The translations under genes were made by a program, and so were the position numbers. From a virus, in IMG/VR virus record IMGVR_UViG_3300042197_002946, positions 64,001 through 128,000 of that record: a DNA stretch of 64,000 bases. One strand, given 5' to 3'. Below, piece after piece: positions 1 to 63,795 of the stretch; positions within the stretch are counted from its first letter, which is position 1, and each line of letters opens with the position of its first letter. The notes under the pieces are model-generated. The model had not been told where the DNA came from. It made no database searches and saw nothing but the letters and a program-made list of their open reading frames with translations.

Positions 1-3000
1 GGCTTGCCAGGCACTCTTGTTTATTACAGCGGTACTCCGGCAACAGGAGGCAAGGTCCAGCCGATTAGCACCACAGCAGTAGTACAAAATCAAGAATGGT
101 ATTTAAACACTTATTTCTATGAGCCATCAGGATGTAATGTTAGTAGAAGTGGCTTAGTGTTTGATCAATATATGAATGTTGATAAATATGCCGTTATGAC
201 ATTGGACGAACATCGACGCACAGTTATGGGTTATCCAGTAGAAGAGGTAGAGAAACTGATTGCTGCTAATCCTGGTAAAATTGACTATATCCAGAAATTA
301 GTGGATTTGGCTAAAGCTAAAAAGTTTTCTGATGAAAGCCATTTTATTCCTCGTCAATATAATGCTTTATATTTTATCCCAGAATCAACTGCATACAGCA
401 CCCCATCGGCAGACATTGCTAATACTAGTAGCTCCATGGGTACTCATTTGGGTAAAGCAGGACAAGCGCAACAAGCAGTATTTGCTATCGGTCGCCGTAA
501 AACAGACCTATCCCAACCTCTTAATCTAGAAAGAGGAGAGGATGTTGATCAGGACAATAAGCTGTTCCCAGGAGGATTATCTGCTCCACAAACTATTATT
601 TCTACAATACCTAAAAAAGATCTAGCAGGACAAACTAGCTATCTCAGACCCAAGTATAAGTTTAATTATGATGAAATGACTTCGACTTACATGGCTCCAT
701 ATAGCAGTGTAGACGACTCTCAACACCCGCAGTCTGCTTTATTTAATATGGTTAGACCCATGACGGGAACCACAGACACTACCGTTGAAGCTGGTGCTAG
801 ACCAAAAACATATCAAAGTTGGTGGTATTTTGATCCTGCAGATAATACCGGAGGTCAAGGATCTAGACCTCCAGAGTTTAGATATTCCACAATTCAAAGA
901 GCAGTTCCGACAGCTTTTAATTTAGGAAGAGAAGAAATTGACTTTGTAATCTACGGCACCGGATCCAAGTATCCACAAGAACAAGTATCTAAATTCTTAT
1001 TCGGGGATGTTAATCAATACATTACATGGAAGAAAACTGGTTTGGGTAGAGAGGATACAAACTTCCCATTCCTCACAACCGTACCAGCTTTTTATTTTAA
1101 TGCTTCTCTAGGCGCGTTCATGTTACATACAGACAAGCCTGCCTGGATACCAACAAAAGTAGCAACAGATTGTGAACCGTGCGATCCTGTACAGAGTGGT
1201 ATTAATTTTGCTGATCTTACAGTTAGAGGATGGATAGGAACCAGCGGTATTCGTATTGGCCAAGGATATCGCAGAGCATACACAACTAATAATCAAGGAG
1301 AGCTTGTAGAAGCAGTAGACGGTAAGGGTAAGCCGATTTTTGAACCTACAACTGGCATGGTACTAACATCGGATAGCTATGGGTTTGCTGTATGGACACC
1401 GCTTGGGGGAGCGGTAACAACCAATCAGGTATTAACTGCATCAACGGCAGGTGTTCTTTCAGATCAGAGTATAGTTTTAACTGAAGGATCTTTGGATCCT
1501 GTCAGTTCGGTGCCGAACATCGGACTAGAAAGCTTAGAGTCAGATAGTGCCCGATTGTTTAGGGATACAGTAGATGTGACTAATGAAACAACATTAGCAA
1601 ATCCTGTATTAAGATTGCGTGGCGTTACTCGTAATAGTTTATTATTCGCCAAGAATCCTTTACCAAACAGAAGCGATGAGTTTACCAATAAGTTTAACGA
1701 GTCATCTCTGCCAACTAATCCTAACGAGATGAATATCGACGGAACAGAGAATTTATTCTACTATGGTTATACTAATGCCCTTGCAGGTCTTTTATCTTAT
1801 AATTCAGAATCTCAAACAACAGAAATCCTAATCGACGGAGATGCTACAAGAAGATTTAATATTAATGATATTGTAAGAGTCTATTATAAATATATGACGG
1901 TAGTTCAAAATCAAAGCGTAGAAGTTTCTACTATTGAACGAGCTAGAGTCGTCGGTATATACACAGTCAGATTAACAGAAACTATCAATGGTAGATCATC
2001 TAGAACTAGCGTTGTATTAGACAAATCATTATCTAATGTTGCAGAGTCCACGTATTTGTTGGATTCAACAGCAGAACTACGTAGAGTAGCTGTTATTTCT
2101 CAAACTATAGGTGGTTATCTTACATTTAATTTCCCAGGCACAAATCCTGATATTGTTATAAGCAATAGAGAGCATATAGACACAGCTTTTAATAGTAATG
2201 GTAAATTTACTAATTTTGGTATATACGGCTCTCGTAGTGGTATGTTGACCCCAACTCTATTATATGGGGAAACGATTACTAATAGTATCCAGATTAAAGA
2301 CAAAACACCATTTGTATATGGCTATGAAACTAGATCGATTGATAATGTATCAACGTCTTTAGAAAAAGACATCAATAGTAATTTATATTATCATTATAAT
2401 TTAAATGGGTTATATATCCAGGGCACATACGATGAAGAATCAAGTACTCTCACAATGACTAGCGTTGATGATATTGTTACTGGAGACATTATTGAAATAG
2501 TTTATGATAATAATCAAGACACTAAAGCTTTAGTTAAAAATATTAATGATAAAACATTGACTATATCCTTTAAAGATATTAATTTGGGTATGCTAGAAAA
2601 CAAAATAGGAAACATTGCTCGCAATAATAATGGCGGCATATTAAATAATAATTTTAAAGTAAGAGTAATAAAGAGACAGCTATCCAAGACTGCTAGTGTT
2701 GTGAATGGGTCAATGGTTATTAAGGCTGAGGATCAAGTTCCACTATATGCTGATTTTGCTGTTAGAGGATTAACATATACAGATGGATTAATGCTGGGGC
2801 ATAACGACAACGGCAATAATCCTATTATTAAAGACCAGTCTATACTATACAGTAATCATGGCTTGGTATCCGGCAGTAATTTACGTTATGTTGATGTTAC
2901 AGCTCTTAATACTCATCAAACATATAAAACCTTAGTTTTTAATGAAGAACAACCAAGAGTATTGTCTCTGGATAAATATAGAGACAAACCATTAGAGCCT

Positions 3001-3201
3001 GTTAGTTCTAACAATCCAGAGAAAATTGCTCCGGTATTTGCTCATTTCAGCATGTACGGATCTGTGTATGCCGAACATATGAGTGTTGACACATTGAATA
3101 AATTTAATACTATTGATGGTGGAGTAGTTAAGTTTAGAGGATCTTGTGCTAATTTTAATAATGTTTGTATAGAGTCTGACCTTCCACCACCTCCAGGTTA
3201 A
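1..3201 (+). CDS. Large putative virion structural/tail-fibre-associated protein, 5' truncated by window edge
   Basis: >1065 aa open frame from the window start; beta-rich composition; ends in CANFNNVC...PPPPG; first of a run of tightly packed giant + strand ORFs. Confidence 0.6.
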   Translation, partial: GLPGTLVYYSGTPATGGKVQPISTTAVVQNQEWYLNTYFYEPSGCNVSRSGLVFDQYMNVDKYAVMTLDEHRRTVMGYPVEEVEKLIAANPGKIDYIQKLVDLAKAKKFSDESHFIPRQYNALYFIPESTAYSTPSADIANTSSSMGTHLGKAGQAQQAVFAIGRRKTDLSQPLNLERGEDVDQDNKLFPGGLSAPQTIISTIPKKDLAGQTSYLRPKYKFNYDEMTSTYMAPYSSVDDSQHPQSALFNMVRPMTGTTDTTVEAGARPKTYQSWWYFDPADNTGGQGSRPPEFRYSTIQRAVPTAFNLGREEIDFVIYGTGSKYPQEQVSKFLFGDVNQYITWKKTGLGREDTNFPFLTTVPAFYFNASLGAFMLHTDKPAWIPTKVATDCEPCDPVQSGINFADLTVRGWIGTSGIRIGQGYRRAYTTNNQGELVEAVDGKGKPIFEPTTGMVLTSDSYGFAVWTPLGGAVTTNQVLTASTAGVLSDQSIVLTEGSLDPVSSVPNIGLESLESDSARLFRDTVDVTNETTLANPVLRLRGVTRNSLLFAKNPLPNRSDEFTNKFNESSLPTNPNEMNIDGTENLFYYGYTNALAGLLSYNSESQTTEILIDGDATRRFNINDIVRVYYKYMTVVQNQSVEVSTIERARVVGIYTVRLTETINGRSSRTSVVLDKSLSNVAESTYLLDSTAELRRVAVISQTIGGYLTFNFPGTNPDIVISNREHIDTAFNSNGKFTNFGIYGSRSGMLTPTLLYGETITNSIQIKDKTPFVYGYETRSIDNVSTSLEKDINSNLYYHYNLNGLYIQGTYDEESSTLTMTSVDDIVTGDIIEIVYDNNQDTKALVKNINDKTLTISFKDINLGMLENKIGNIARNNNGGILNNNFKVRVIKRQLSKTASVVNGSMVIKAEDQVPLYADFAVRGLTYTDGLMLGHNDNGNNPIIKDQSILYSNHGLVSGSNLRYVDVTALNTHQTYKTLVFNEEQPRVLSLDKYRDKPLEPVSSNNPEKIAPVFAHFSMYGSVYAEHMSVDTLNKFNTIDGGVVKFRGSCANFNNVCIESDLPPPPG

Positions 3202-3216
3202 TCATAGGGTGTAAAT

Positions 3217-3867
3217 ATGCCATTTCCAAAAAACACTATCGTTCCAAAATTTGCTAATAGTAATAGAGATATTGTGGATACTAGTGTAGAAACAGAAATT
3301 CCTGACTATACTGCCAATATTAATGGTTTTGTTCCGTTTTCTAATCGCATTATCTTAAAAAGAGATGAAACTACTACTAATCATCCTTGTCCTGATGATC
3401 TTGCTGTTGGCGAATTAGTATTAAATGCAATTACAGGCAATTTATATACCAAATTAGTGTCTGGTCAGGTCGTTTATTATCCTGGCATACTAGTTTGTGT
3501 GGGCAAAGAGGGCGTGGGATCTAATACGTTTGGAACAGCTATCTCAGTCCCAGAAACATATGTCGAAGATACATTTACTGTATCTTTGTATGGAATAACT
3601 TTATCAACAGCTAAAGGCAATGAGATCAGATTCAATCCAGTGTCCGATATTACGCAGGGGTTCCCGTCCTCATTTTCTCTATTGTATTCAAGTGATAATA
3701 CTTCCTATTTTGAAATAGGTCGAATCACAGTAGTAGGAGATTATATCAATGCTAATTTTGAATTTGTGTATAAAGATAATGAGAACGCTAAACCCTTAAA
3801 AGGACAGTTTAAAATTGGTCTATATGATAATAAATCTTTGGGTTTCCTCAAAATAGAAGCTATTTAA
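3217..3867 (+). CDS. Tail-fibre attachment-type protein
   Basis: RIILKRDETTTNHPCPDDLAVGELVLNAITGNLYTK resembles the 'I.LKR....P....L..GEL..N....LY.K' N-terminal motif of phage tail fibres. Confidence 0.6.
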   Translation: MPFPKNTIVPKFANSNRDIVDTSVETEIPDYTANINGFVPFSNRIILKRDETTTNHPCPDDLAVGELVLNAITGNLYTKLVSGQVVYYPGILVCVGKEGVGSNTFGTAISVPETYVEDTFTVSLYGITLSTAKGNEIRFNPVSDITQGFPSSFSLLYSSDNTSYFEIGRITVVGDYINANFEFVYKDNENAKPLKGQFKIGLYDNKSLGFLKIEAI

Positions 3868-3870
3868 AAT

Positions 3871-5409
3871 ATGCTAAATACACACCAAATTACTAAAAAG
3901 AGACTTATAACAACGTACAAGGGGGCTGAGCCCTTCAGATTAACAGCAGATTATGTACGTGAAGATAATGTTGATATAGCCAATCAGGATTTCTCGCTTT
4001 TTGCAGAGAATGACCTTGTTTTATTGGAAGGACAAGATAATCCAAATGAAAATGGCTTATATTTATTCACTGATGGCGCTCTGACCACATACTATCCAGA
4101 GTTCTTTGAGAAAATAGATAAAATTTATGCTATAGATGAAAAAGAAGGAATATCTTCCTATGTTGGCTTTTTTGGAGTAGGAGACCCCCTTAATCAACTG
4201 CACCATATACATCCTGGCCAGGGTTTAATTATTATCACCAAACTAGATGCCATATTACCATTTGATTGGTATACTTATGAAACCAATATTTTACCAGCTA
4301 TTAATATAGATCATAATATTACAAAAAGTAATTTTGCTAATTTATTGTTTTCTGCTAGCGACGGCATGGATGATGAGTATACGGTAGACTTAAGATTTCA
4401 TGACTATAGACCAGTAGTATTAACGTCTAGAATTTCCGGATCTTCAGACCAGCAACAATATTTATTGAGAGTTGATTTAGTAAGTTGTCCTGATCCTGAA
4501 TATATTAATGTTGTTAATAAAGTAGTATTAGATAGACATGAATTATCATTGAGTGGCAGTCCATCCAAGTTTGTAGTTAGTCCAGAAGTACTATCAAATA
4601 AATTCAGGGGATCCTTAAGACCCAATGATGTTGTATGGGTAACGAATAAAGATTTCGGAGTAGAAGGCTTGTATTTATATGATGGATATACTGATTTTCA
4701 TAAACTATCCAATTCAGACTATATTATTAGAACTAAAAAATATATTATAGAAGAATCTCAAAAAATTATTAATAGTATTCCAGAAGACTTTTATGTTAAT
4801 TATATTTTAAATATCGGATATCCAGGACATTATGATGTTTATCTGGTGTTGGAAAATGCGTCATCTGGAACTATAGTATCTGAAGACCATTATTGTTTTC
4901 ATGTAAAGCAAATTACTAATCTACCAACGCCAACTCCAACAGTGACTCCTACACTACCTATTCACTCAGTATCCTTTGATGATGGTAGTTATCTCAAAGT
5001 TGATAATTGCGAAAGTTGCGCCAAGATTTTTGTGGGAGCATCCGCTTTTGGTTTGCTCTCTGACGCCAACTACTATTATCAGTTTGAAGTATTTACTAAA
5101 GGAGAATCTTTGCCTCGTGATCTAGATACCGATACTGGCACATCGTTTGAGCCACGAGAAGGATTCTTATCAACGGGATTATCTTCTGAAAAATTTGGAA
5201 CTTATGTGACTACAGCAGACAAAACTCGCACAATTATTTCTGTAAAGCTAACTAATCTTGATACTGGAGTATCGGCTACGTCATATTTAACATTAGCAGT
5301 ATGTGATGAGAATTACTGTGCTCCAGAAGTTACTCCTACGGTAACTCCCACAACCACTAGAGTTCAATACGCTCCCAGACCCACTCCAACACCAAAAGTC
5401 GGATCATAA
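3871..5409 (+). CDS. Putative virion protein with short PT linkers; paralog of 16568..17749
   Basis: [17 protein letters not shown] matches the 'VLvk.Q....ENGiY' phage structural motif; KIDKIY...LPFDWY block shared with 16568 ORF; [10 protein letters not shown] linkers. Confidence 0.55.
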
Positions 5410-55053: not shown

Positions 55054-55081
55054 ATTATAAGAATGAGGCGTCGAGTGTCAA
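55054..55081 (-). promoter_or_regulatory. Perfect sigma70-type promoter for ssb
   Basis: Minus strand TTGACA (55081-55076) - 16 nt - TATAAT (55059-55054). Confidence 0.8.
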
Positions 55082-56703
55082 GATTCTGGTATAAAACACT
55101 TTTCCACAATCAAACCGCTGCCAGCCTTTTTAGATTTGGTACCTATAAATACCAACACTTCGTTTTCTTTTAATAGATCTTTAAACTCACCATATTGTTC
55201 TGGAAACATTACTACAGAATCCAAACCTCCTGAGCTATCAAAAATCTCCAGAAAGGACATATTCGCCCCTTTATTTTTTCCTTGTTTGGTTTTGATCACA
55301 CTTAACCTACTAATCTCTCCCATGATAGCAACCTTTTTTCCTCCAGTTACTCCTTGAAAGTCTTTGCAAGATATCAAATTAGACTCATAATTTTGCATAT
55401 AACAATCTGTTTTAGTGCATGTCAAAGGAATACCTAATAATGCTGCTTCGGTCTCTGCTATCCACTGCATATTATCTTTTAATGAATATGGTGGATGGTC
55501 TATGCTATTGATAAATTCTTGTATTAGTACTTGTCTCTTTTTTGTTACTTTACATGTGGTTAATAGTTTGATAAAAACATCTTTAAATTTGATGCTTGTG
55601 ATATCTATATTATTAGTTGTGATTTGTTCTAATTCTTTTTTAGTTAGCTTATTAAGCATTTCTAAATAAAATAGTAGCTCTGTTCTAGGTATTTTATAGT
55701 CATCGAAAGCCCCTACGGAAACAATCGCCTTTGCTGCTGCACTATTAACATTGGTCAATAATCTACAAAACGTTGGTATTATTCCAGTTATATTTTTATT
55801 TATTAAATCCAAATGCAACTTTTCAATTGCTTCGTATACCGATTCCCCCACTCCTTTAATATTAGTAAGTCCAAAATAAATTTTATTATCAATAATAGTA
55901 AATTCTTTGTTCATAAATTTAAATTTAGGTAATAAAACCTCTATATTCATGGAACTAGCATTGTGTACCAACTCTTTAATTTCTTGATGTGGGTCTATTT
56001 TATCTTTAGCAAATCTTAGGTAGGAGACAAAAAAGATCTGTGGAAAATGTGCCTTAGCATATGCTGATAAATAACCATTGATAGCATAGCTAATAGCATG
56101 ACTTTTATTAAAAGAATATCTTTGGCTTTTTTCAATCCATCCGAAAATTTCTTCTGCCTCATGAGCATTAACGATACCCTTAGTATTACAGCCATTGATA
56201 AAAACTGTTTTCAACTTGGCCATCTCTTCTGGTTTTTTCTTACCAATGGCTTTTCTTAACATGTCGGCTTCTTGTAAATCAAACCCAGCCAACTCCTGTG
56301 CTATTTGCATACTTTGTTCTTGATAAACCATTTCTCCATATGTGGTTTCGAGAATATTTTTTAGACTGGGGTTATAATAGTCTATACTCTCTTGTCCATT
56401 TTTTCTATCAATGAAATGATTACTAACGCTCTTGCCTTCTCGAATAGCCTCTAGACATCCTGGTCTCATAATGCTAATCAAGCCAGCCAGTTGCTCTATA
56501 TTTTCTGGCTTTAGCTTTTTCGCCATGCTCTGACCTAGTCTAGACTCTAATTGAAAACATCCCTTAGTATTACCATCGGATATTAATTCCCAAGTTCTAG
56601 AACAGTCTAGAGGAATAGAGTTTACGTCAAACTCTAACAATTCTGTATTTTCGCTGTCTACAGGAAACTTACAGCCACAATCAAACTGATAATATTTTGT
56701 CAT
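55078..56703 (-). CDS. dnaE: DNA polymerase III alpha, C-terminal half (fingers, HhH, OB)
   Basis: IPLD...GNTKGCFQLES...IMRPG; TYGEMVYQEQSM; ADMLRKAIGKK; YSFNKSHA; FGLTNIKGVG; OB fold with MSFLEIFD. Confidence 0.92.
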   Translation of the reverse strand: MTKYYQFDCGCKFPVDSENTELLEFDVNSIPLDCSRTWELISDGNTKGCFQLESRLGQSMAKKLKPENIEQLAGLISIMRPGCLEAIREGKSVSNHFIDRKNGQESIDYYNPSLKNILETTYGEMVYQEQSMQIAQELAGFDLQEADMLRKAIGKKKPEEMAKLKTVFINGCNTKGIVNAHEAEEIFGWIEKSQRYSFNKSHAISYAINGYLSAYAKAHFPQIFFVSYLRFAKDKIDPHQEIKELVHNASSMNIEVLLPKFKFMNKEFTIIDNKIYFGLTNIKGVGESVYEAIEKLHLDLINKNITGIIPTFCRLLTNVNSAAAKAIVSVGAFDDYKIPRTELLFYLEMLNKLTKKELEQITTNNIDITSIKFKDVFIKLLTTCKVTKKRQVLIQEFINSIDHPPYSLKDNMQWIAETEAALLGIPLTCTKTDCYMQNYESNLISCKDFQGVTGGKKVAIMGEISRLSVIKTKQGKNKGANMSFLEIFDSSGGLDSVVMFPEQYGEFKDLLKENEVLVFIGTKSKKAGSGLIVEKCFIPES

Positions 56704-57389
56704 TGCGTTACAAAAGAGTCCCTAAATTTAATCTTCTTAGATAAGTTTCTGTGCAATCTCATGAATCGAATCAATAATTCTGCACAGTCTTGTACGTCTT
56801 TAAGAGCATCATGAGCGCCGGCTTTGCTAATGCCCATATAGTCTCTGATATTATCCAGAGATAGGTTCTTAATGTCTCCGTTGCTTTCAAACCAATAGAA
56901 TAATAGATTCATCATATCAAGAGTATCTCGTGGATAGAATAAGCTTGACCCATTCTCATTGTTTACGTATCCTAATTTTCTACTAAATCTCTCAACTATT
57001 TTCATATCAAACCGTATAATGTTATACCCAGAAGCAACAGGAGCAGAAAACATGCTTTTTTTGCTTCTATTCAGATGATATATTTCTAAATATTGTGCAA
57101 ACATTGACCACGCTTGTTGCTGGGACATGGAGTTCTTCCACGATTCCAGTATTTGCTCTTTAGTAGAGTTTCTGACCTTAGCATGAAACTCTAATATGTC
57201 CGAATCGCTGTATGTATGATTAGGGTCATTCTCCAGTTTTTCTGGCTTGACCTGAATATTAAACTCAGAATCTTTCACAATAGATAGATTGTATGGATCT
57301 ACTATAATAGCGGCTATTTGAACAGGACTACAGGTCTCTGTATCAATACCGTCTGTTTCAAAATCAAAAACGCATATTTTATTTTTCAT
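56700..57389 (-). CDS. dnaQ: DEDDh 3'-5' exonuclease (Pol III epsilon-like)
   Basis: ExoI VFDFETDG, ExoII YNIIRFD, ExoIII HDALKD; ATGA overlap with dnaE-C. Confidence 0.85.
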   Translation of the reverse strand: MKNKICVFDFETDGIDTETCSPVQIAAIIVDPYNLSIVKDSEFNIQVKPEKLENDPNHTYSDSDILEFHAKVRNSTKEQILESWKNSMSQQQAWSMFAQYLEIYHLNRSKKSMFSAPVASGYNIIRFDMKIVERFSRKLGYVNNENGSSLFYPRDTLDMMNLLFYWFESNGDIKNLSLDNIRDYMGISKAGAHDALKDVQDCAELLIRFMRLHRNLSKKIKFRDSFVTQ

Positions 57390-59935
57390 TGTAGGATACT
57401 AGTATCGTCCTGTAGGGCTTCCAGAATAGAGAATGTATTATTATAGTATATTTGTAAATCTAACTTAGGTCCGCATACTATCCCGGAATCTGTGCGAACC
57501 CTCACACATCCTATAAGATAGTTGGCAGACATGGGTCTGTCCAGAGTAATTTTTGTAATATTAAGTATTGGATCGTAGACTACTCTTGTCGCATTAAGAG
57601 TAGCTGTTTGTTGATAAATATTGTCTATTTCTTCTTTTGTAGGATCTGGATTAGCTGATCTGAGCCAATAACTAACTTTAACAGCACCAGGCAAAATTTT
57701 ACCCGTAACATTATATGGAACAATCAATGTTCGCCTATCTGGTTTGTATTCATATTTAAATTGATTATTTATAGTGGGAACCAATTCTCTACTAAAATAC
57801 GTATAGCACACTATCCTATCAATTGGAATATAAATATAATGACTACTATCAACTATAGTTACAGAACCGCCGCGATTAGACACATAATTGCGTATAGGAT
57901 TATACATTTTGATATAACTATCAGTAGATTTAGTGCTAGCAGAAGTTTTTAATAGAGGGGTGTTAGATTTAGCGTCAAAATATATTTTACCCTGTAGTTG
58001 AGTATTAAAAATATCTCTTAAAAAACGAAAAGAATCGCCGGTAACTTTTTCATATTTAACTGTTTGGGGAGCATTAGGTATATGACCAACACCATCTTCA
58101 TCAGGAATACCTGTGATAATGGCTTGATATAGCTCATCTAATTCTATTTTGGTAATGCCAAAAAATTGTTTAGTTAATTCTGGATTGGTTTTTTCTGCTA
58201 AAAAATATTCTATGAGCTGCTTAGCATAAGTACCGACATTATATGTGATATATCTACGACCACTCGCGGCAAAATCATCAACAACTACATAACATGCATA
58301 CAGCCATTCTGTTAAAGACGCATCAATCGGAGGCTCTTTATTCCACCCATTACAAGTTGGAATCGGATCTTCTGGCTGTTGGGCTCTGATACGAATATAA
58401 GGATCAACAAAATTTTGAGCAAATGCACTGCTACCTTGAGATAACTCGTATCTGATAAGATACGGCTCTGTTAAAAATAAATCTTCGATGATAACTCGGT
58501 TGTTTTCGTCTACTGGCCAATTAACAGTCTGGTAAACTATCTGTGGATCAGTGGCATCTTTAGGATTGGTCTTAGTATGAAAAAACCCTTTACCAGGAGC
58601 CATAAATAAATCAAAAATATTACTTTCTAAAGTATTAAATGACTCACACAAACCTTGATATAGCCAAAATTTATTAGCAGTACTATATTTGATAGGTTCT
58701 TGTTTGTCATTGACTCTGAAAAAGTATAACGGAGCACTTCTATCGTACGAATTGACAGGTGGAGGGTTATCGGGATATGTTATAGTACCGCCTCGACCTA
58801 GATCTATTCCATGCAAATTAAAAGCATCTCCAGGTAGCAATTTATATGCACTTATATCTTCAAAATATGATGGAAAAGAAGACTTAGAAAAAATTTCTCT
58901 AGCATTTATTTTTTCAACAGGAGTATCTAAGTGTAATTCGTCATCCTCATTGTCTGTAAAATGCAAGCCTCCGAACAAGATAATATCTAATAGATTTCTT
59001 TTATTTGTAGCCAACATCATACCTTTTAAGGTAAATGGGTCTAGCTTATTAGGATACGATGAACCCAAATAGTCTATACCTGCCAGAGCTGAATTAAAAG
59101 CAAAGCTTGTCCCATATTGCTCTTGAGCAGATAGTACGTTTGGCCTATTATCGGACAATAAGTCTCCTATAGTAAATGTATCTATAGAGGGATATGTGGC
59201 CTCTACCTCGCTTAAAAGTTCTTTATATTTTCTATGCATACACAATGCATTTACTGGACAACAACCAGGAGCTATTTGATATGTGTCTACTTTTTTATAA
59301 AGCAGCCTGTCTCTATTGAAGGGGTCGTAAAGGGTAAAGTAATCTCCTATTGCTAGTCTGCCAAAAGTAGTAAACTCTCTCGGCACTAAATCACCAGACC
59401 AATCGGTATAAACTTGCACACCGCTACTAATCCTGGCGATAATAGTTTTAGGCCCAGTATCGACTGTTAAAAAAAGCTCTCCTTCGGGGTCTTGATAAGA
59501 CAGAGGGGTGATTTGGCGATATGTTTCAACAAAGTCTGACCCCAAATTTTGAAAAGTTCCCACGCCGTATGTTTTTTCGCTAGTTTGTGATATTAATGTA
59601 AAATATAAACCAATATTAATATCTATATTTTTACTTGTATTTATTGGAAAATTTATTTGTGTCGGCATTGTTAAATATAGAGTTTCTGCTGGCATAGCCA
59701 TTTGGCCCTCTACATTAGACCCCCACATCCATATACTCTTATCTTGCTTAAGTGCTACTGAATGATTGGCACCAACCTTAGCTTCTATCCAAGGTATAGC
59801 ATCATATTGAGGGATACCAGTAATAACCTTATAAGTTTCTGCGGTGTCTTTAACATTTCCTATGCCCAACTGACCATACTGATTATCTCCAGACGAATAT
59901 AGAATACCTTCTTCTATATACAGAATATGTCCCAT
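57386..59935 (-). CDS. RCC1-repeat-containing protein of unknown function
   Basis: SGDNQYGQLGIG, VGANHSVALKQDKSIWMWGSNVEGQ at N-terminus; C-terminal ITKITLDRPM module shared with 24874 ORF. Confidence 0.65.
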   Translation of the reverse strand: MGHILYIEEGILYSSGDNQYGQLGIGNVKDTAETYKVITGIPQYDAIPWIEAKVGANHSVALKQDKSIWMWGSNVEGQMAMPAETLYLTMPTQINFPINTSKNIDINIGLYFTLISQTSEKTYGVGTFQNLGSDFVETYRQITPLSYQDPEGELFLTVDTGPKTIIARISSGVQVYTDWSGDLVPREFTTFGRLAIGDYFTLYDPFNRDRLLYKKVDTYQIAPGCCPVNALCMHRKYKELLSEVEATYPSIDTFTIGDLLSDNRPNVLSAQEQYGTSFAFNSALAGIDYLGSSYPNKLDPFTLKGMMLATNKRNLLDIILFGGLHFTDNEDDELHLDTPVEKINAREIFSKSSFPSYFEDISAYKLLPGDAFNLHGIDLGRGGTITYPDNPPPVNSYDRSAPLYFFRVNDKQEPIKYSTANKFWLYQGLCESFNTLESNIFDLFMAPGKGFFHTKTNPKDATDPQIVYQTVNWPVDENNRVIIEDLFLTEPYLIRYELSQGSSAFAQNFVDPYIRIRAQQPEDPIPTCNGWNKEPPIDASLTEWLYACYVVVDDFAASGRRYITYNVGTYAKQLIEYFLAEKTNPELTKQFFGITKIELDELYQAIITGIPDEDGVGHIPNAPQTVKYEKVTGDSFRFLRDIFNTQLQGKIYFDAKSNTPLLKTSASTKSTDSYIKMYNPIRNYVSNRGGSVTIVDSSHYIYIPIDRIVCYTYFSRELVPTINNQFKYEYKPDRRTLIVPYNVTGKILPGAVKVSYWLRSANPDPTKEEIDNIYQQTATLNATRVVYDPILNITKITLDRPMSANYLIGCVRVRTDSGIVCGPKLDLQIYYNNTFSILEALQDDTSILQ

Positions 59936-59964
59936 AAGCTGTCCTACTTACTAAATGCTACAAG

Positions 59965-60147
59965 CTATTTTATTGTGACAGTAGCATTGTCCGGAATAAA
60001 AGTCTTTTCTCCGCTACTCACAACAACAGCATTGAGCTTTCTACAACAAGATACTCTAACTTCTGGTGTTTTTCTGTATTCAGTATTGTTGTGAATAAAG
60101 ACGGTGTCTATAGTAATATTAGCAAATGTTGTTTGATGTTCCGACAT
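59965..60147 (-). CDS. Small beta-rich protein with vicinal Cys-Cys
   Basis: 60 aa, AAGGGA upstream, similar to a segment of the adjacent 849-aa protein. Confidence 0.55.
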   Translation of the reverse strand: MSEHQTTFANITIDTVFIHNNTEYRKTPEVRVSCCRKLNAVVVSSGEKTFIPDNATVTIK

Positions 60148-61993
60148 AGTTATTTCCCTTTAATAAAGATTGAATACACATAATTTTATCTAACATACCA
60201 ATACCTAGAATGTCAAACTTTACTATACCAAGAGATTCTAAATCTTGCATTTCCATACCTGCAATACTATTTCCGGTCTTAGAATCATACACCATTGGAC
60301 ATATTCCATCTAGATTATGGGCTGATATCGCAATACCGGCTGCGTGTTTAGATTGATTTGATTTGGTTCCTTCTAATCTAATAGCTTGCTCAAAGCGTTT
60401 TGCAAACAAGCCCGATATTGAGCCGTCATCATTAATTTGGCACCAATCTTTAAATTTATCTGGAGTATTCTCTAAGGCCCATTGAATAATGGAAGATTCT
60501 CCTCTATCTTCTTTCATTTCTTGAAGATCATCCGCTATCTTCGCTTCGTCCGGAATGTTTTTAGTAATTTGATTCATTTCCTCATAAGATAAACCTCCAT
60601 ATACTCTCAACACCTCTTTTAAGGCGCCTCTTCCTTTCATAGTATTAAATGTAATCATCTGAGATACCTTATGAGTCCCATACTTATTTTTAATATAGCC
60701 AATAACATTATCTCTTGTTGTCATAGGCACATCGATATCAATATCTGGCATAGATATTCTATCAGTAGAATTTCTTCCAGCATTATAGAATCTCTCAAAA
60801 AGCAAATCATATTTAATAGGATCTATATTGGTAATTTCTAATAAATAAGATACCAAACAACCAGCAGCACTTCCTCGACCCGGACCAGGAAGCCAAGAAT
60901 TTGTTCTAATATAATTTACAATGTCTTGAACGATTAAAAAATATCCAGACAAGTTAGCCCCTTGTAATACAGATAGTTCCTGTTTGATCCTGTCTGCATA
61001 AATTTTTTGGTCTTCTTCGGATATTTTGGTAAAACCACGTTTTCTCCATCCATCTCTACATAATTGTCTTAAGTATTCATCCTCATTATCTATAAATTGT
61101 GGTAGTTGAGGTCTATTAAGAATATTGTATTCTTCACACATATCAGCTACTAAATTAGTATTACGCAATTCTTCTTCTGTGTGTAAATTTCTCATTTCCT
61201 CATCAGACAAAATATAGAAATTATCGGACTTAAAAAAGCAGCCAAGAGGCACATCTTCATTATTAATAATCTTTTTATTAATTTCTGGGAAAGTGGTTTT
61301 AAGAGTATTACAAAGCAGAACTCTTTGATCTATAGCGTCCTCTTTGTTGGCATAGTGGGCATCGGGAGTGGCTACTACTTTTAATTGGTGCTTTTTAGCT
61401 AAGCTGCGAATAATATCTGTCAGAGTAATTTGGAATGGTAAATGATCTTTATCCATTAATTGGGCTTCTAAAAATAATCCGTCAGACCCAAAAATAGACT
61501 TTAATTGATCTATTAATAAACTAGCTGGATTCAAATCTGATCCATTATTTATGATATCGGCCAAGTTAGAGCCCATGTGACCAGTAATACAGATCAGTCC
61601 GGACGTATCCAGGTCTTCGAGTTCGTTTATGCTGATCCTGGGCTTTCTATAAAATCTGCTTGGGTCGTTTGATGCAGAAACTAAACTGATAAGGTTTTTC
61701 CAGCCTTGGATGTTTTTTGCCAGCACCAACATGTGAGATAATTGACCGTTATCTTTGTGCTGATTTGTGGACTTGTCTTTACAAATATATAATTCGCACC
61801 CTAGAATAGGCTTAATTCCTTGCTTTTTCATAGCCTGATAAAATGACACAGCTCCAGAGATAGAGCCGTGATCTGTAATAGCACAGGCTGATGACCCTAT
61901 GTCAGCGCATCTTTTAGCGATCTGTTCGGGCTTACTGAGTCCGTCTAATAATGAGTAGTGGGAGTGTGTATGAAGAGAGATATATGATGACAT
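60119..61993 (-). CDS. dnaE: DNA polymerase III alpha, N-terminal half (PHP, palm, thumb)
   Basis: LHTHSHYSLLDG, TDHG, GCE, DAHY (PHP); GPGRGSAAG; LLFERF; PDIDID; KHAAG; KFDILG. Confidence 0.93.
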   Translation of the reverse strand: MSSYISLHTHSHYSLLDGLSKPEQIAKRCADIGSSACAITDHGSISGAVSFYQAMKKQGIKPILGCELYICKDKSTNQHKDNGQLSHMLVLAKNIQGWKNLISLVSASNDPSRFYRKPRISINELEDLDTSGLICITGHMGSNLADIINNGSDLNPASLLIDQLKSIFGSDGLFLEAQLMDKDHLPFQITLTDIIRSLAKKHQLKVVATPDAHYANKEDAIDQRVLLCNTLKTTFPEINKKIINNEDVPLGCFFKSDNFYILSDEEMRNLHTEEELRNTNLVADMCEEYNILNRPQLPQFIDNEDEYLRQLCRDGWRKRGFTKISEEDQKIYADRIKQELSVLQGANLSGYFLIVQDIVNYIRTNSWLPGPGRGSAAGCLVSYLLEITNIDPIKYDLLFERFYNAGRNSTDRISMPDIDIDVPMTTRDNVIGYIKNKYGTHKVSQMITFNTMKGRGALKEVLRVYGGLSYEEMNQITKNIPDEAKIADDLQEMKEDRGESSIIQWALENTPDKFKDWCQINDDGSISGLFAKRFEQAIRLEGTKSNQSKHAAGIAISAHNLDGICPMVYDSKTGNSIAGMEMQDLESLGIVKFDILGIGMLDKIMCIQSLLKGNNYVGTSNNIC

Positions 61994-62005
61994 AAAGTTC
62001 CAAAG

Positions 62006-63049
62006 TTATTCTGTGCTTCCGGGAGCCTTGTAGTGCCCTATATTATGACCTGGGGCGGAGTATTCGTCAATCACCATATCCATACCTTTCAACTCTATGT
62101 CGTGCTTTACTTGCTCACACTTGGTCATATTGGTATGCTTAGCACATGTTTGGTTATCTCTATACTCTTCTAATGGATAAACATGAGTGTTATCAAATGT
62201 GGTTTTCCCAAAATGACATAATTTATTGCACATCCAACTCTTTTTTAAAGTTGGTTTACGACTCTTTTTGATAATCTCAAATTTATCTTTAAGCATTTTT
62301 TCGGTTTGCGGAATATCTGACTTATCAAATAAAATACTAAACGGACCACCATCATTAATAAAAAATATCGTAACTATAATGTGATCATAATCTGGATACA
62401 GTTGTTGTACAGCATAGTGATAGATTCTTAATTGAGGGTCGTTCTCTAATTTTTCCTGAGTTTTTTCTTGTCCTGTCGCCCAGTCCAGTCTTCGTCCGGT
62501 TTTCCAATCCACTATCTCTAGGGTATTGTCATCTATTTTAGTAATAAGATCTATAGTGCCTTTTAGGGCCAGCGTACCACTAAGATTATTGCCATTAATA
62601 TTATAATTGTATTCAGCCCACTTTTTGTCGATAGTAATATCAAAATGTTGTTCTGGACACATAATATTACGATTGCGAGGATCAAACATCCCATTATTAA
62701 ATTCAATAGCCTTATAGACCCACTTACGGCAATCATCAAAGTCTCTTTCAGTCCATTTGTGATGATGACATTTGGTAATATAGTAGTCATAGACATTTTT
62801 TATAATCTGCTCCAAATCATATCCATGCGTGGGTAGTTCTCCAAGGATATCATCATCTATAGACTTTTCTTTGTTCTGCTCTGCTTGTTTAATTACAGCC
62901 AGTATTTCTAATACCTTATGGACTATAGTGCCTTTGTCTGCCTTTTGACCAGACGGACTTCTCCATCCCAGAACATATTCCATAAAGTATTGCTGTTCAC
63001 ACATGGAATGAGTATTATATGACGAGCTTCTAAAATATGTGATTATAAT
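62006..63049 (-). CDS. PD-(D/E)XK Cas4/AddB-like exonuclease (probable non-ATG start near 63049)
   Basis: GTIVHKVLE; KGTIDL...IVDWKTG...QLRIY; Cys at N-terminus and CNKLC...C (Fe-S-like); upstream in-frame IITYFRSSSYNTHSMC. Confidence 0.8.
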   Translation of the reverse strand: MIITYFRSSSYNTHSMCEQQYFMEYVLGWRSPSGQKADKGTIVHKVLEILAVIKQAEQNKEKSIDDDILGELPTHGYDLEQIIKNVYDYYITKCHHHKWTERDFDDCRKWVYKAIEFNNGMFDPRNRNIMCPEQHFDITIDKKWAEYNYNINGNNLSGTLALKGTIDLITKIDDNTLEIVDWKTGRRLDWATGQEKTQEKLENDPQLRIYHYAVQQLYPDYDHIIVTIFFINDGGPFSILFDKSDIPQTEKMLKDKFEIIKKSRKPTLKKSWMCNKLCHFGKTTFDNTHVYPLEEYRDNQTCAKHTNMTKCEQVKHDIELKGMDMVIDEYSAPGHNIGHYKAPGSTE

Positions 63050-63795
63050 AATTCACCTCGTTCGAATATTGATTGAAAAAGATTAAAGAGATACATCGAT
63101 TGATCATATATTGACATATTTTCATTATCAATAACGTGATCAAAATTTGACCAATCATATCTGTTCTTATCTAAAATTACTTCGCTTATATGGTCAGAAG
63201 AATTGTGTTTATCTCTTGTTAATCGAATAACCAAACCACCAGCGCTATGTATGGCTTCAACCTCGTTAGGGAATCGACAATCAGTAATCAGGGCCAATTC
63301 TGTATTGTCATCTAGAATTTTACTAATAGTAGCTTCTGGCCATATATTTGGCTTCATGGATCTGAAAATATCAGTACCAACTACCTGCATTACTTCTCTG
63401 GCTGTTAAGTATTTATTTTGCCAGTAAACGTTGGTTATATCATTTTTATCCATATCGGATCCATAGCATTGATTGTATGTCAATCCTAGCAAATCCATGC
63501 AAATATTTTTTTTGAGTATATCAGCAAAGCTATATAATTTAATATATGGATTGAGTTGTTTAACTATCTCAGCCACGTCTTTATCTAATATATTGTTATG
63601 ATTATTTAAATAATATTGATTAATATCTACAGTAATAGACGCTCCATTATGTTTTAAAATGTCTATTGTACCTTGATCATTAATCTTAGCTTTTTGGCAT
63701 AGGTTTTGATCTGCCAAATAGAGACTATAAATAAAATTAGCTGATGTATTTTTGCCAGATTGTTTTTTTCCAGAAAATCCTATAATTTTAGTCAT
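63043..63795 (-). CDS. Deoxynucleoside monophosphate kinase (T4 gp1/T5 dnk-like)
   Basis: P-loop GKKQSGKNT; SFADILK; TAREVMQVVGTDIFR; ITDCRFPNE. Confidence 0.85.
   Translation of the reverse strand: MTKIIGFSGKKQSGKNTSANFIYSLYLADQNLCQKAKINDQGTIDILKHNGASITVDINQYYLNNHNNILDKDVAEIVKQLNPYIKLYSFADILKKNICMDLLGLTYNQCYGSDMDKNDITNVYWQNKYLTAREVMQVVGTDIFRSMKPNIWPEATISKILDDNTELALITDCRFPNEVEAIHSAGGLVIRLTRDKHNSSDHISEVILDKNRYDWSNFDHVIDNENMSIYDQSMYLFNLFQSIFERGELL

What the first reader, a model, noticed from the sequence alone, without database searches (positions are those of the whole stretch)
55078..61993. Intein-less split DnaE with dnaQ and two other genes between the halves
Seen: the N-half (60119-61993) ends about 20 residues after the palm motif KFDILG. 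The C-half (55078-56703) starts MTKYYQFDCGCKF and resumes at IPLD...GNTKGCFQLES, which in single-chain DnaE follows KFDxLG within a few tens of residues. Both ORFs are intact, 3.4 kb apart, with three coding genes in between. No intein N-block (C/S-L...) or C-terminal H-N/C motif is visible, unlike the cyanobacterial split DnaE. dnaQ is translationally coupled (ATGA) to the C-half. Inference: a non-covalent heterodimeric C-family replicase, possibly a three-subunit core with the epsilon-like protein. The extra Cys residues at the new termini (CGC; MC...NIC) could staple the halves through a metal.
Basis: partly seen in the sequence, partly recalled or inferred. Interest (0 to 1): 0.8.

Follow-up and report, generated by a model that had tools for sequence, protein, structure and literature searches.

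The report
Two-piece phage DNA polymerase III
This uncultured 150-kb phage, like hundreds of aquatic relatives, makes its only DNA polymerase (bacterial Pol III alpha type) as two separate proteins cut between palm and fingers, with a tiny conserved protein and a proofreading nuclease encoded in the gap and nothing to rejoin the halves.

Summary
The N-half (60119-61993, minus strand) holds the PHP, palm and thumb domains. The C-half (55078-56703) holds the fingers, HhH and OB domains. The break lies at the palm/fingers border (Taq about 627-640, E. coli about 575-583).

No intein, intron or other polymerase was found in this CheckV-complete genome, and the same tools did find inteins and introns in relatives.

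All IMG/VR relatives examined (about 150 loci, except one contiguous locus) keep the order N-half, ~60-aa protein, DEDDh exonuclease, C-half. The 849-aa RCC1-like gene is a late insertion, seen only in the five nearest contigs.

- The N-half tail cysteines are not conserved.
- The C-half head motif CxC...C is specific to split forms.

- The micro-protein is a confidently predicted SH3-like barrel with an invariant Ser-Cys-Cys loop, and it is absent from a complete genome with a contiguous DnaE.
- Contiguous relatives are nested among split ones (AU p = 0.0027).
- A cultured phage, Rossellomorea phiT1, independently has the same break.

The most likely reading is a non-covalent multi-subunit replicase.

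This scan had already reported the same split DnaE in at least 46 other genomes. I found no paper describing it.

The parts
60119..61993 (-). DnaE N-half, 624 aa: PHP, palm and thumb. It carries the catalytic Asp triad (PDIDID, KFDILG).
   Evidence: Pfam. Aligns to Taq DnaE residues 7-626. Conserved at 63-88% identity in 80 loci, always ending at about residue 611-624.
59965..60147 (-). Conserved 60-aa micro-protein, an SH3-like small beta-barrel. F8, F17, C34 and C35 are invariant; S33 and N39 are near-invariant.
   Evidence: Present after the N-half in every locus with sequence there. AF2 mean pLDDT 91.2. Best PDB matches Z 5.0-5.4: L2 SH3 domain, FeoA, eIF5A/EF-P domain I. At least 258 clusters, all 54-74 aa, unnamed.
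57386..59935 (-). 849-aa protein with N-terminal RCC1-like repeats and an otherwise unknown body; a lineage-specific insertion into the cassette.
   Evidence: Pfam RCC1/WD40_RLD on residues 8-134 only. Full-length relatives only in the five nearest contigs, always at this position.
56700..57389 (-). 229-aa DEDDh (DnaQ/RNase T type) 3'-5' exonuclease, ATGA-coupled to the C-half.
   Evidence: Pfam RNase_T E 7.5e-12; PHROG 192 'DNA polymerase exonuclease subunit' E 2e-19. Motifs FDFETDG, GYNIxRFD and HDALxD are conserved in 47 unique relatives. Overlap shown.
55078..56703 (-). DnaE C-half, 541 aa: fingers, HhH (beta-binding) domain and OB. Its head carries the split-specific motif [FY]x[FY]xCGCxF...C(xx)TW.
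   Evidence: Pfam. Aligns from E. coli alpha 584 and Taq 640. Conserved at 52-89% identity. Head statistics.
62006..63004 (-). PD-(D/E)XK nuclease gene, the conserved upstream neighbour of the N-half.
   Evidence: Pfam E 1e-17. A homologue is present in 150 of 151 related loci.
54630..55016 (-). SSB gene, the conserved downstream neighbour of the C-half.
   Evidence: Pfam SSB E 2.3e-26. Found in 113 of 151 related loci, many of which are cut short.

Best explanation
The phage's only DNA polymerase is a C-family (DnaE-type) enzyme made from two separately translated polypeptides that associate without a covalent link. The N-chain supplies the PHP domain, the thumb and the palm with the three catalytic aspartates. 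The C-chain supplies the fingers, including the conserved Arg/Lys loop ADMLRKAIGKKK (which in single-chain DnaE binds the incoming nucleotide; own knowledge), plus the HhH and OB DNA-binding domains. The active site is therefore composite, and neither chain should polymerise alone. The genes are co-transcribed and translationally coupled with two genes in the gap: a DEDDh proofreading exonuclease and a ~60-aa SH3-like protein. Both are probably further subunits, and the micro-protein may help hold the halves together. The 849-aa RCC1-like gene is a later passenger in this sub-lineage.

Shown: anatomy, conservation, absence of splicing elements, absence of any other polymerase.
Inferred: physical association, subunit composition, and the role of the micro-protein and the Cys motifs.
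For: 1. Domain split and breakpoint.
2. Both halves and the exonuclease are under purifying selection, with catalytic motifs invariant in 39-50 unique relatives.
3. The cassette order N-half, micro-protein, exonuclease, C-half holds in all loci examined, with overlapping or abutting genes. No terminator or promoter excess lies inside it.
4. No rejoining element was found. There is no Pfam intein/Hint hit on either half or in the genome. At most about 13 extra residues on the N-tail and about 28 on the C-head leave no room for an intein. There is no Rfam hit at E<=1 in 54000-63000.
5. Positive controls: the same tools detect inteins at three other sites of relatives, plus a split-intein N-part after FNK, and group I introns in Bacillus phage WH1 dnaE.
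6. There is one palm and one fingers match, and no PolA or PolB, in a CheckV-100% genome.
7. The micro-protein is present in all split cassettes and is confidently folded. It is absent from a complete 168.8-kb genome whose DnaE is contiguous.
8. CxC and Cys34 of the C-half head are found only in split forms.
9. The same seam was split independently in cultured phage phiT1, which suggests it tolerates fission.
Against: No protein-level evidence exists; no complex could be modelled with the tools on hand. The link between the micro-protein and the split state rests on a single complete contiguous genome. Six of 97 unique C-half heads lack the CxC head while their micro-proteins keep Ser-Cys-Cys, so these two Cys features are not strictly interdependent. 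The isolated C-half N-terminus folds poorly in AF2 (pLDDT 61), which says nothing either way. No sliding clamp gene (DnaN type) was found, so processivity is unexplained.
Confidence: 0.85

Rival explanations
1. The halves are joined after translation by an unrecognised, very short or atypical split intein, giving a normal single-chain DnaE.
For: Inteins are common in this polymerase family: at N-half residues about 66 and about 375, at C-half residue 83, and as a split-intein N-part after FNK. The C-half head carries conserved cysteines.
Against: The N-half tail after the conserved LLK is 3-13 residues, variable in length and sequence, with no conserved Cys or Ser nucleophile. The residue before the first head Cys is D, S, N, P or E, not a conserved Asn. 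There are no Hint or intein hits. Six unique heads lack the whole CxC segment.
Confidence: 0.04
2. The gap is removed at the RNA level (an ORF-bearing intron or trans-splicing) or skipped by the ribosome.
For: Phage dnaE genes do carry group I introns; Bacillus phage WH1 has two Rfam Intron_gpI hits.
Against: The gap is filled edge to edge by conserved, translationally coupled protein genes. No non-coding stretch could hold a ribozyme core. Rfam finds nothing even at E<=1. A bypass of 0.9-3.4 kb is far beyond the one known ribosomal hop (about 50 nt in T4 gene 60; own knowledge).
Confidence: 0.02
3. The split is a decaying or subfunctionalised gene. The halves no longer form a polymerase, and the phage replicates with the host Pol III.
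For: No phage clamp or clamp loader was detected, so some dependence on host replisome parts is likely.
Against: All catalytic and nucleotide-binding motifs are invariant across relatives as far apart as 38-40% identity. Both ORFs are intact in about 150 loci. The phage also encodes its own primase, DnaB-type helicase, SSB, RNR and dNMP kinase.
Confidence: 0.05
4. The RCC1-like 849-aa protein is a functional accessory subunit of the polymerase in this sub-lineage. It would be recruited through a micro-protein-like segment at residues 188-232.
For: It has stayed in the cassette in six genomes at 30-71% identity. Its segment F..L.(I/V)GD.F...Y.K...GCC..NA resembles the micro-protein consensus (hhalign top hit at that region, P 0.0046).
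Against: hhalign probability is only 7.6%, and hmmsearch with the micro-protein HMM gives E 0.81 over the phage's 1124 six-frame ORFs. All other members of the clade do without it.
Confidence: 0.15

Closest known systems
Single-chain DnaE / Pol III alpha of bacteria and phages (solved: Taq 2HPI/3E0D, E. coli 2HNH/5FKU, M. tuberculosis 5LEW)
   Same: Same domains in the same order, the same catalytic motifs, and end-to-end sequence alignment of the two halves.
   Different: Here there are two polypeptides, broken at the palm/fingers border. Exonuclease and micro-protein genes sit inside the break, and the C-chain has a split-specific Cys head.
Rossellomorea phage phiT1 (PV767480) gp20 / gp19 / gp18, a cultured Bacillaceae phage
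   Same: DnaE is annotated as two CDSs broken at the same seam: gp20 ends 22 residues after KFDLLG and gp18 starts MFDILDIPLDD...FQLES. One small ORF lies between them.
   Different: It lies outside the aquatic clade, grouping with contiguous Geobacillus and Moorella phage DnaE, and its nearest relatives are contiguous, so this is an independent fission. It has no exonuclease in the gap. Its 49-aa ORF is unrelated to the SCC micro-protein. I found no paper on it.
Cyanobacterial split DnaE with the Ssp/Npu split intein
   Same: dnaE is encoded as two genes.
   Different: In cyanobacteria the halves are ligated by a split intein inserted next to the FNKSH motif of the fingers (own knowledge). 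That is about 170 residues downstream of the break here, and no intein parts are present here. Relatives P0012 and P0035 do end in an intein N-part right after FNK.
Contiguous DnaE of sister phages (P0013, P0016, P0027, P0035, P0095; locus L089)
   Same: 42-50% identical over both halves; same clade. The exonuclease gene is adjacent.
   Different: One chain with a short Cys-free linker. In L089 the exonuclease lies upstream of dnaE, and its complete genome has no micro-protein.
Minimal split Pol III catalytic module of T4-like jumbo phages (Iyer et al. 2021, PMC7824862)
   Same: A phage C-family catalytic module encoded as two proteins without inteins.
   Different: That one is a minimal nucleotidyltransferase core without PHP, HhH or OB. 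It is split inside the catalytic module, encoded by distant genes, and accompanies a family B replicase. Here a full-size DnaE is the only polymerase.
Naturally split A- and B-family polymerases (T4-like gp43A/B and Methanothermobacter PolB, own knowledge; chimallivirus split polymerase, PMC13648687, title and abstract only, listed)
   Same: Precedents for replicative polymerases that work as non-covalent fragments.
   Different: Different polymerase families and folds, and different break sites.

Membership tests
C-family DNA polymerase, DnaE type | N-terminal PHP domain | tested here: met
   PF02811 E 1.6e-39 on N-half residues 7-178. HxH, DHG and PDAHY motifs are visible.
C-family DNA polymerase, DnaE type | Pol-beta-like palm with three catalytic aspartates | tested here: met
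   PF07733 E 8.5e-72. PDIDID and KFDILG align with Taq PDIDTD and KMDFLG and are invariant in relatives.
C-family DNA polymerase, DnaE type | Fingers domain with nucleotide-binding basic loop | tested here: met
   PF17657 E 7.5e-48 on the C-half. ADMLRKAIGKKK aligns with E. coli ADMLRRAMGKKK.
C-family DNA polymerase, DnaE type | HhH (beta-binding) domain and C-terminal OB fold | tested here: inconclusive
   HHH_6 E 1.2e-8, above its cut-off. OB scores 22.9 bits, below its 27-bit cut-off. No clamp-binding motif was established.
C-family DNA polymerase, DnaE type | Catalytic subunit is one polypeptide | tested here: not met
   Two ORFs 3.4 kb apart here and about 0.9 kb apart in most relatives.
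Split-intein DnaE (cyanobacterial type) | N-intein (~100 aa or more, starting with Cys/Ser) at the end of the N-protein | tested here: not met
   Only 3-13 variable residues follow the last conserved DnaE helix. No Hint or intein hit. Relatives' inteins are detected by the same tool.
Split-intein DnaE (cyanobacterial type) | C-intein ending in (H)N followed by Cys/Ser/Thr at the start of the C-protein | tested here: not met
   The head is at most 28 residues and has no conserved Asn before a nucleophile. It is absent altogether in 6 of 97 unique heads.
Intron-interrupted phage gene (group I/II) | Structured catalytic RNA in the gap | tested here: not met
   No Rfam match at E<=1 in 54000-63000, and the gap is fully coding. 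Positive control: two Intron_gpI hits in WH1 dnaE.
DnaQ/epsilon-like DEDDh proofreading exonuclease | Exo I, II and III motifs with His (DEDDh) | tested here: met
   FDFETDG, GYNIIRFD and HDALKD are conserved in 47 unique relatives. RNase_T E 7.5e-12.
DnaQ/epsilon-like DEDDh proofreading exonuclease | Binds the polymerase (PHP domain) as a core subunit | not testable with these tools
   Only gene order and translational coupling are available. No complex modelling was on hand.
Fractured genes (Dassa et al. 2009, PMC2677866) | Split intein halves flanking a free-standing homing endonuclease gene | tested here: not met
   There are no intein parts. The genes in the gap are an exonuclease, an SH3-like micro-protein and an RCC1-like protein, with no homing endonuclease domain.

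The most novel reading that the evidence does not exclude
The clade uses a four-subunit C-family polymerase core: N-chain, C-chain, DEDDh exonuclease and an SH3-like micro-protein. Split-specific cysteines (CxC...C of the C-chain head, and perhaps the invariant Ser-Cys-Cys loop of the micro-protein) would form an inter-subunit metal site that replaces the lost peptide bond. The architecture would be evolutionarily reversible, with re-fusion to a single chain accompanied by loss of the micro-protein.
Probability: 0.2. Interest if true: 0.75.

Novelty: new variant of a known kind. Interest (0 to 1): 0.58.

Why it matters
C-family polymerases replicate all bacterial chromosomes and have always been treated as single-chain catalytic subunits; the only known exception is cyanobacterial DnaE, which is rejoined by an intein. 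A very large group of aquatic phages runs on a DnaE whose active site is shared between two chains.

- **Distribution:** more than 130 of the 150 best 50%-identity clusters and hundreds of IMG/VR contigs carry the split.
- **Structure:** the split shows that the palm/fingers seam is a natural domain boundary that tolerates fission.
- **Biochemistry:** it offers a ready-made system to study fingers closure and subunit assembly, and a natural design for split-polymerase tools.
- **Unknown subunit:** it points to an undescribed 60-aa protein that tracks the split state.
- **Evolution:** fission at the same seam in an unrelated cultured phage, and contiguous forms nested in the clade, suggest that fission and fusion of this essential enzyme recur.

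Tried and rejected
- **Metal staple between the two new termini:** rejected for the N-half. Its tail Cys are not conserved, and no split-specific Cys was found among 90 split versus 7 contiguous N-parts.
- **Micro-protein as a piece of DnaE or a fused domain elsewhere:** the 'longer' search found nothing, which is weak evidence. There were no Pfam or PHROG hits. The precomputed tag PF26909 on some members is not in the local Pfam copy.
- **Micro-protein fold:** only generic SH3-like matches at Z about 5, so no function can be read from it.
- **Homology of the RCC1-like protein segment to the micro-protein:** not established (hhalign P 0.0046 and probability 7.6%; hmmsearch E 0.81).
- **AF2 of C-half residues 1-200:** run to see whether the Cys head is ordered. 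Mean pLDDT was 61; the head was drawn as a low-confidence beta-hairpin. Uninformative.
- **Strict Cys4 site in the C-half:** not supported, because Cys49 is missing in 17 of 97 unique heads. No head lacks both CxC and Cys49, but about 1.2 would be expected by chance, so this is not significant.
- **Gene context of contiguous proteins P0013 and P0027:** A single-protein scan of IMG/VR found nothing. An alignment-based scan gave one contiguous locus, L089.
- **Literature:** five searches found no description of this split.


Full report
**1. What is there**

The minus strand of 54.6-63.8 kb is a tightly packed replication module. Pfam reads, in transcription order:
- dNMP kinase (63043-63795)
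- PD-(D/E)XK nuclease (62006-63004)
- a 624-aa protein with PHP and the Pol III alpha palm (60119-61993)
- a 60-aa ORF (59965-60147)
- an 849-aa protein with RCC1 repeats at its N-terminus only (57386-59935)
- a 229-aa RNase_T/DEDDh exonuclease (56700-57389)
- a 541-aa protein with Pol III fingers, HHH_6 and a weak OB (55078-56703)
- SSB (54630-55016)

The exonuclease and C-half overlap as ATGA. The 60-aa gene starts 29 nt inside the N-half's 3' end. Promoter-like and terminator-like sites inside the cassette are no more frequent than in shuffled sequence.

The window is bases 64001-128000 of a 150,336-bp IMG/VR virus record that CheckV rates 100% complete. Primase, DnaB-type helicase, RecA and a class II RNR lie further on.

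**2. Where the break is**

Against solved structures:
- The N-half aligns to Taq DnaE 7-626, including PDIDID/PDIDTD and KFDILG/KMDFLG.
- The C-half aligns from Taq 640 and E. coli 584.

The break therefore falls at the palm/fingers border. All three catalytic aspartates are on the N-chain. The fingers' basic loop (ADMLRKAIGKKK) and the FNKSH motif are on the C-chain. At most about 13 (N-tail) and about 28 (C-head) residues are unaccounted for.

**3. Nothing to rejoin the halves**

- No Hint or intein domain is found on either half or anywhere in the genome.
- No Rfam family matches at E<=1 in 54000-63000.
- The gap is coding from edge to edge.

These negatives have positive controls:
- Relatives carry inteins that Pfam detects at N-half residues about 66 and about 375 and at C-half residue 83. 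Two relatives end in an intein N-part (CL[DS]P...) right after FNK, next to the cyanobacterial split-intein site.
- The fragmented dnaE of Bacillus phage WH1 gives two group I intron hits.

The genome has one palm match, one fingers match, and no PolA, PolB or DnaN-type clamp.

**4. Conservation and spread**

A scan of IMG/VR with the N-half found 322 relatives. The 80 best (63-88% identity) all end at query residue about 611-624. Wherever the contig continues, they are followed by a ~60-aa ORF, the exonuclease and the C-half at 52-89% identity. A second scan added about 70 more loci with the same layout.

Catalytic motifs of both halves and the DEDDh motifs are invariant. PD-(D/E)XK and dNMP kinase homologues are present in 150 and 149 of 151 loci.

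In a search of 1.84 billion 50%-identity representatives, more than 130 of the best 150 hits are proteins of about 540-690 aa ending at the same point, at identities down to 38-40%.

Variants seen:
- The RCC1-like gene occurs only in L003-L007.
- Two extra ORFs lie between the exonuclease and C-half in L065 and L069.
- An HNH-bearing intein sits in the C-half of L061.
- The exonuclease of L071-L073 is intact but lacks an ATG, GTG or TTG start.

**5. The cysteines**

Most relatives have Thr for the 'MC' Cys, and the N-half ends 8-10 residues earlier. The NNIC tail is an extension over the micro-protein start. No position in the N-half is Cys in split forms but not in contiguous ones.

The C-half head is different. 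Among 97 unique heads:
- Cys34 (C..TW) is present in 97.
- CxC is present in 91.
- Cys49 (KGCFQLES) is present in 80.

The contiguous relatives inspected at the junction have none of these. A metal or disulfide role for the head is therefore plausible, but it was not tested. Six unique heads lack the CxC segment entirely.

**6. The micro-protein**

The alignment of 27 members has F8, F17, C34 and C35 invariant, and S33, N39 and V57 near-invariant. AF2 gives mean pLDDT 91.2 for an all-beta barrel, with Ser-Cys-Cys in the loop between strands 22-31 and 37-42.

Fold searches give only generic SH3-like matches: ribosomal L2 SH3 domain, FeoA and eIF5A/EF-P domain I, at Z 5.0-5.4 and Foldseek E 0.01. 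The family has at least 258 90%-identity clusters, all 54-74 aa and unnamed. No fused form was found.

It is absent from the complete, terminally repeated 168.8-kb genome behind L089. That genome's DnaE is contiguous, and its exonuclease gene sits directly upstream of dnaE. On this single comparison, the micro-protein tracks the split state.

**7. Evolution**

In a careful maximum-likelihood tree of the N-part (36 rows, LG+C20+F+G4 PMSF):
- The aquatic clade has 100/100 support.
- One contiguous group (P0027, L089, P0095, P0012) sits in the unresolved base.
- The other (P0035, P0013, P0016) is nested among split forms (97/91), close to the window.

The AU test rejects a tree in which all split forms are one clade (delta lnL 64.8, p 0.0027). 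The grouping was fixed by gene structure, but I ran the test after seeing the tree.

Because all split forms share the same four-gene layout, re-fusion or recombination is more likely than repeated identical fissions. This is inference. An exo-dnaE operon that duplicated in tandem and lost complementary parts would explain why the exonuclease lies inside the break. This is speculation.

**8. An independent case in a cultured phage**

Rossellomorea phage phiT1 (PV767480) is annotated with two 'DNA polymerase III subunit alpha' CDSs and a 49-aa ORF between them:
- gp20 ends 22 residues after KFDLLG.
- gp18 begins MFDILDIPLDD.

It groups with contiguous Geobacillus and Moorella phage DnaE outside the aquatic clade. 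Its nearest database relatives read through in one frame. Its small ORF is unrelated to the micro-protein, and no intron was detected. The same seam has thus been cut at least twice.

**9. Literature and earlier notes**

Five full-text searches found no description of a palm/fingers two-gene DnaE. Iyer et al. 2021 (PMC7824862) describe a different, minimal split Pol III module in T4-like jumbo phages. A 2026 survey of bacterial polymerases does not mention such a split.

This scan's own notes list the same feature in at least 46 other genomes, with the same conclusion. I re-tested those claims here rather than relying on them.

**10. Verdict**

The feature is real and strongly conserved, and is most likely a non-covalent multi-subunit C-family replicase (confidence about 0.85). 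It is a new variant of a known kind. The termini-staple idea holds only for the C-half head, and the RCC1-like gene is a passenger of this sub-lineage.

Noticed in passing
window 57386-59935 (-), residues 188-232 of the 849-aa protein: The segment F..L.(I/V)GD.FTL..P.NR.R..YKK......GCC..NA is invariant in the five relatives and resembles the micro-protein consensus F..l.vG..F..nG.eY.K....vSCC...NA encoded just upstream. The statistics are weak (hhalign P 0.0046, hmmsearch E 0.81). It may be a duplicated micro-protein module.
   Followed up: partly
window 55054-55081 (-): A perfect sigma-70 consensus (TTGACA, 16 nt, TATAAT) spans the last bases of the C-half gene (its stop codon is at 55078-55080) and the spacer that follows, upstream of the SSB gene.
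   Followed up: no
G000:C1:41905-59718 and 59735-67201 (the latter runs into window 1-3201): Two giant ORFs of 5937 and 2488 aa stand head to tail in the structural region. They are followed in the window by a run of 1000-2200-aa ORFs.
   Followed up: no
L061:12726-15089; P0016: A split-type C-half (L061) and a contiguous relative (P0016) both carry an intein at C-half residue 83; the L061 intein also has a weak HNH-domain hit. Other relatives have inteins at N-half residues about 66 and about 375.
   Followed up: partly
P0012 and P0035 (protein database, no context available): These DnaE proteins are contiguous across palm/fingers. They end about 92-94 residues after RY[SQ]FN[KA] with an intein-like N-part (CLDPTT.../CLSPST...). 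This suggests a split intein next to the cyanobacterial insertion site within this phage clade.
   Followed up: partly
L065:12769-13784 and L069:8590-9605: Two extra ORFs (146 and 191 aa) are inserted between the exonuclease and the C-half. This is another lineage-specific insertion into the cassette.
   Followed up: no
L071:12048-12737 (also L072, L073): The exonuclease frame is open and conserved from just after the micro-protein stop, but it has no ATG, GTG or TTG until residue ~80. This suggests a non-canonical start or re-initiation.
   Followed up: partly
L189 (Bacillus phage Jayan, PQ299153) 1980-5387: dnaE is annotated as two 'DNA polymerase' CDSs (410 and 634 aa) with a 76-aa ORF between them. 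The break is inside the N-half region, not at the palm/fingers seam. No intron was detected by Rfam at E<=0.1.
   Followed up: partly
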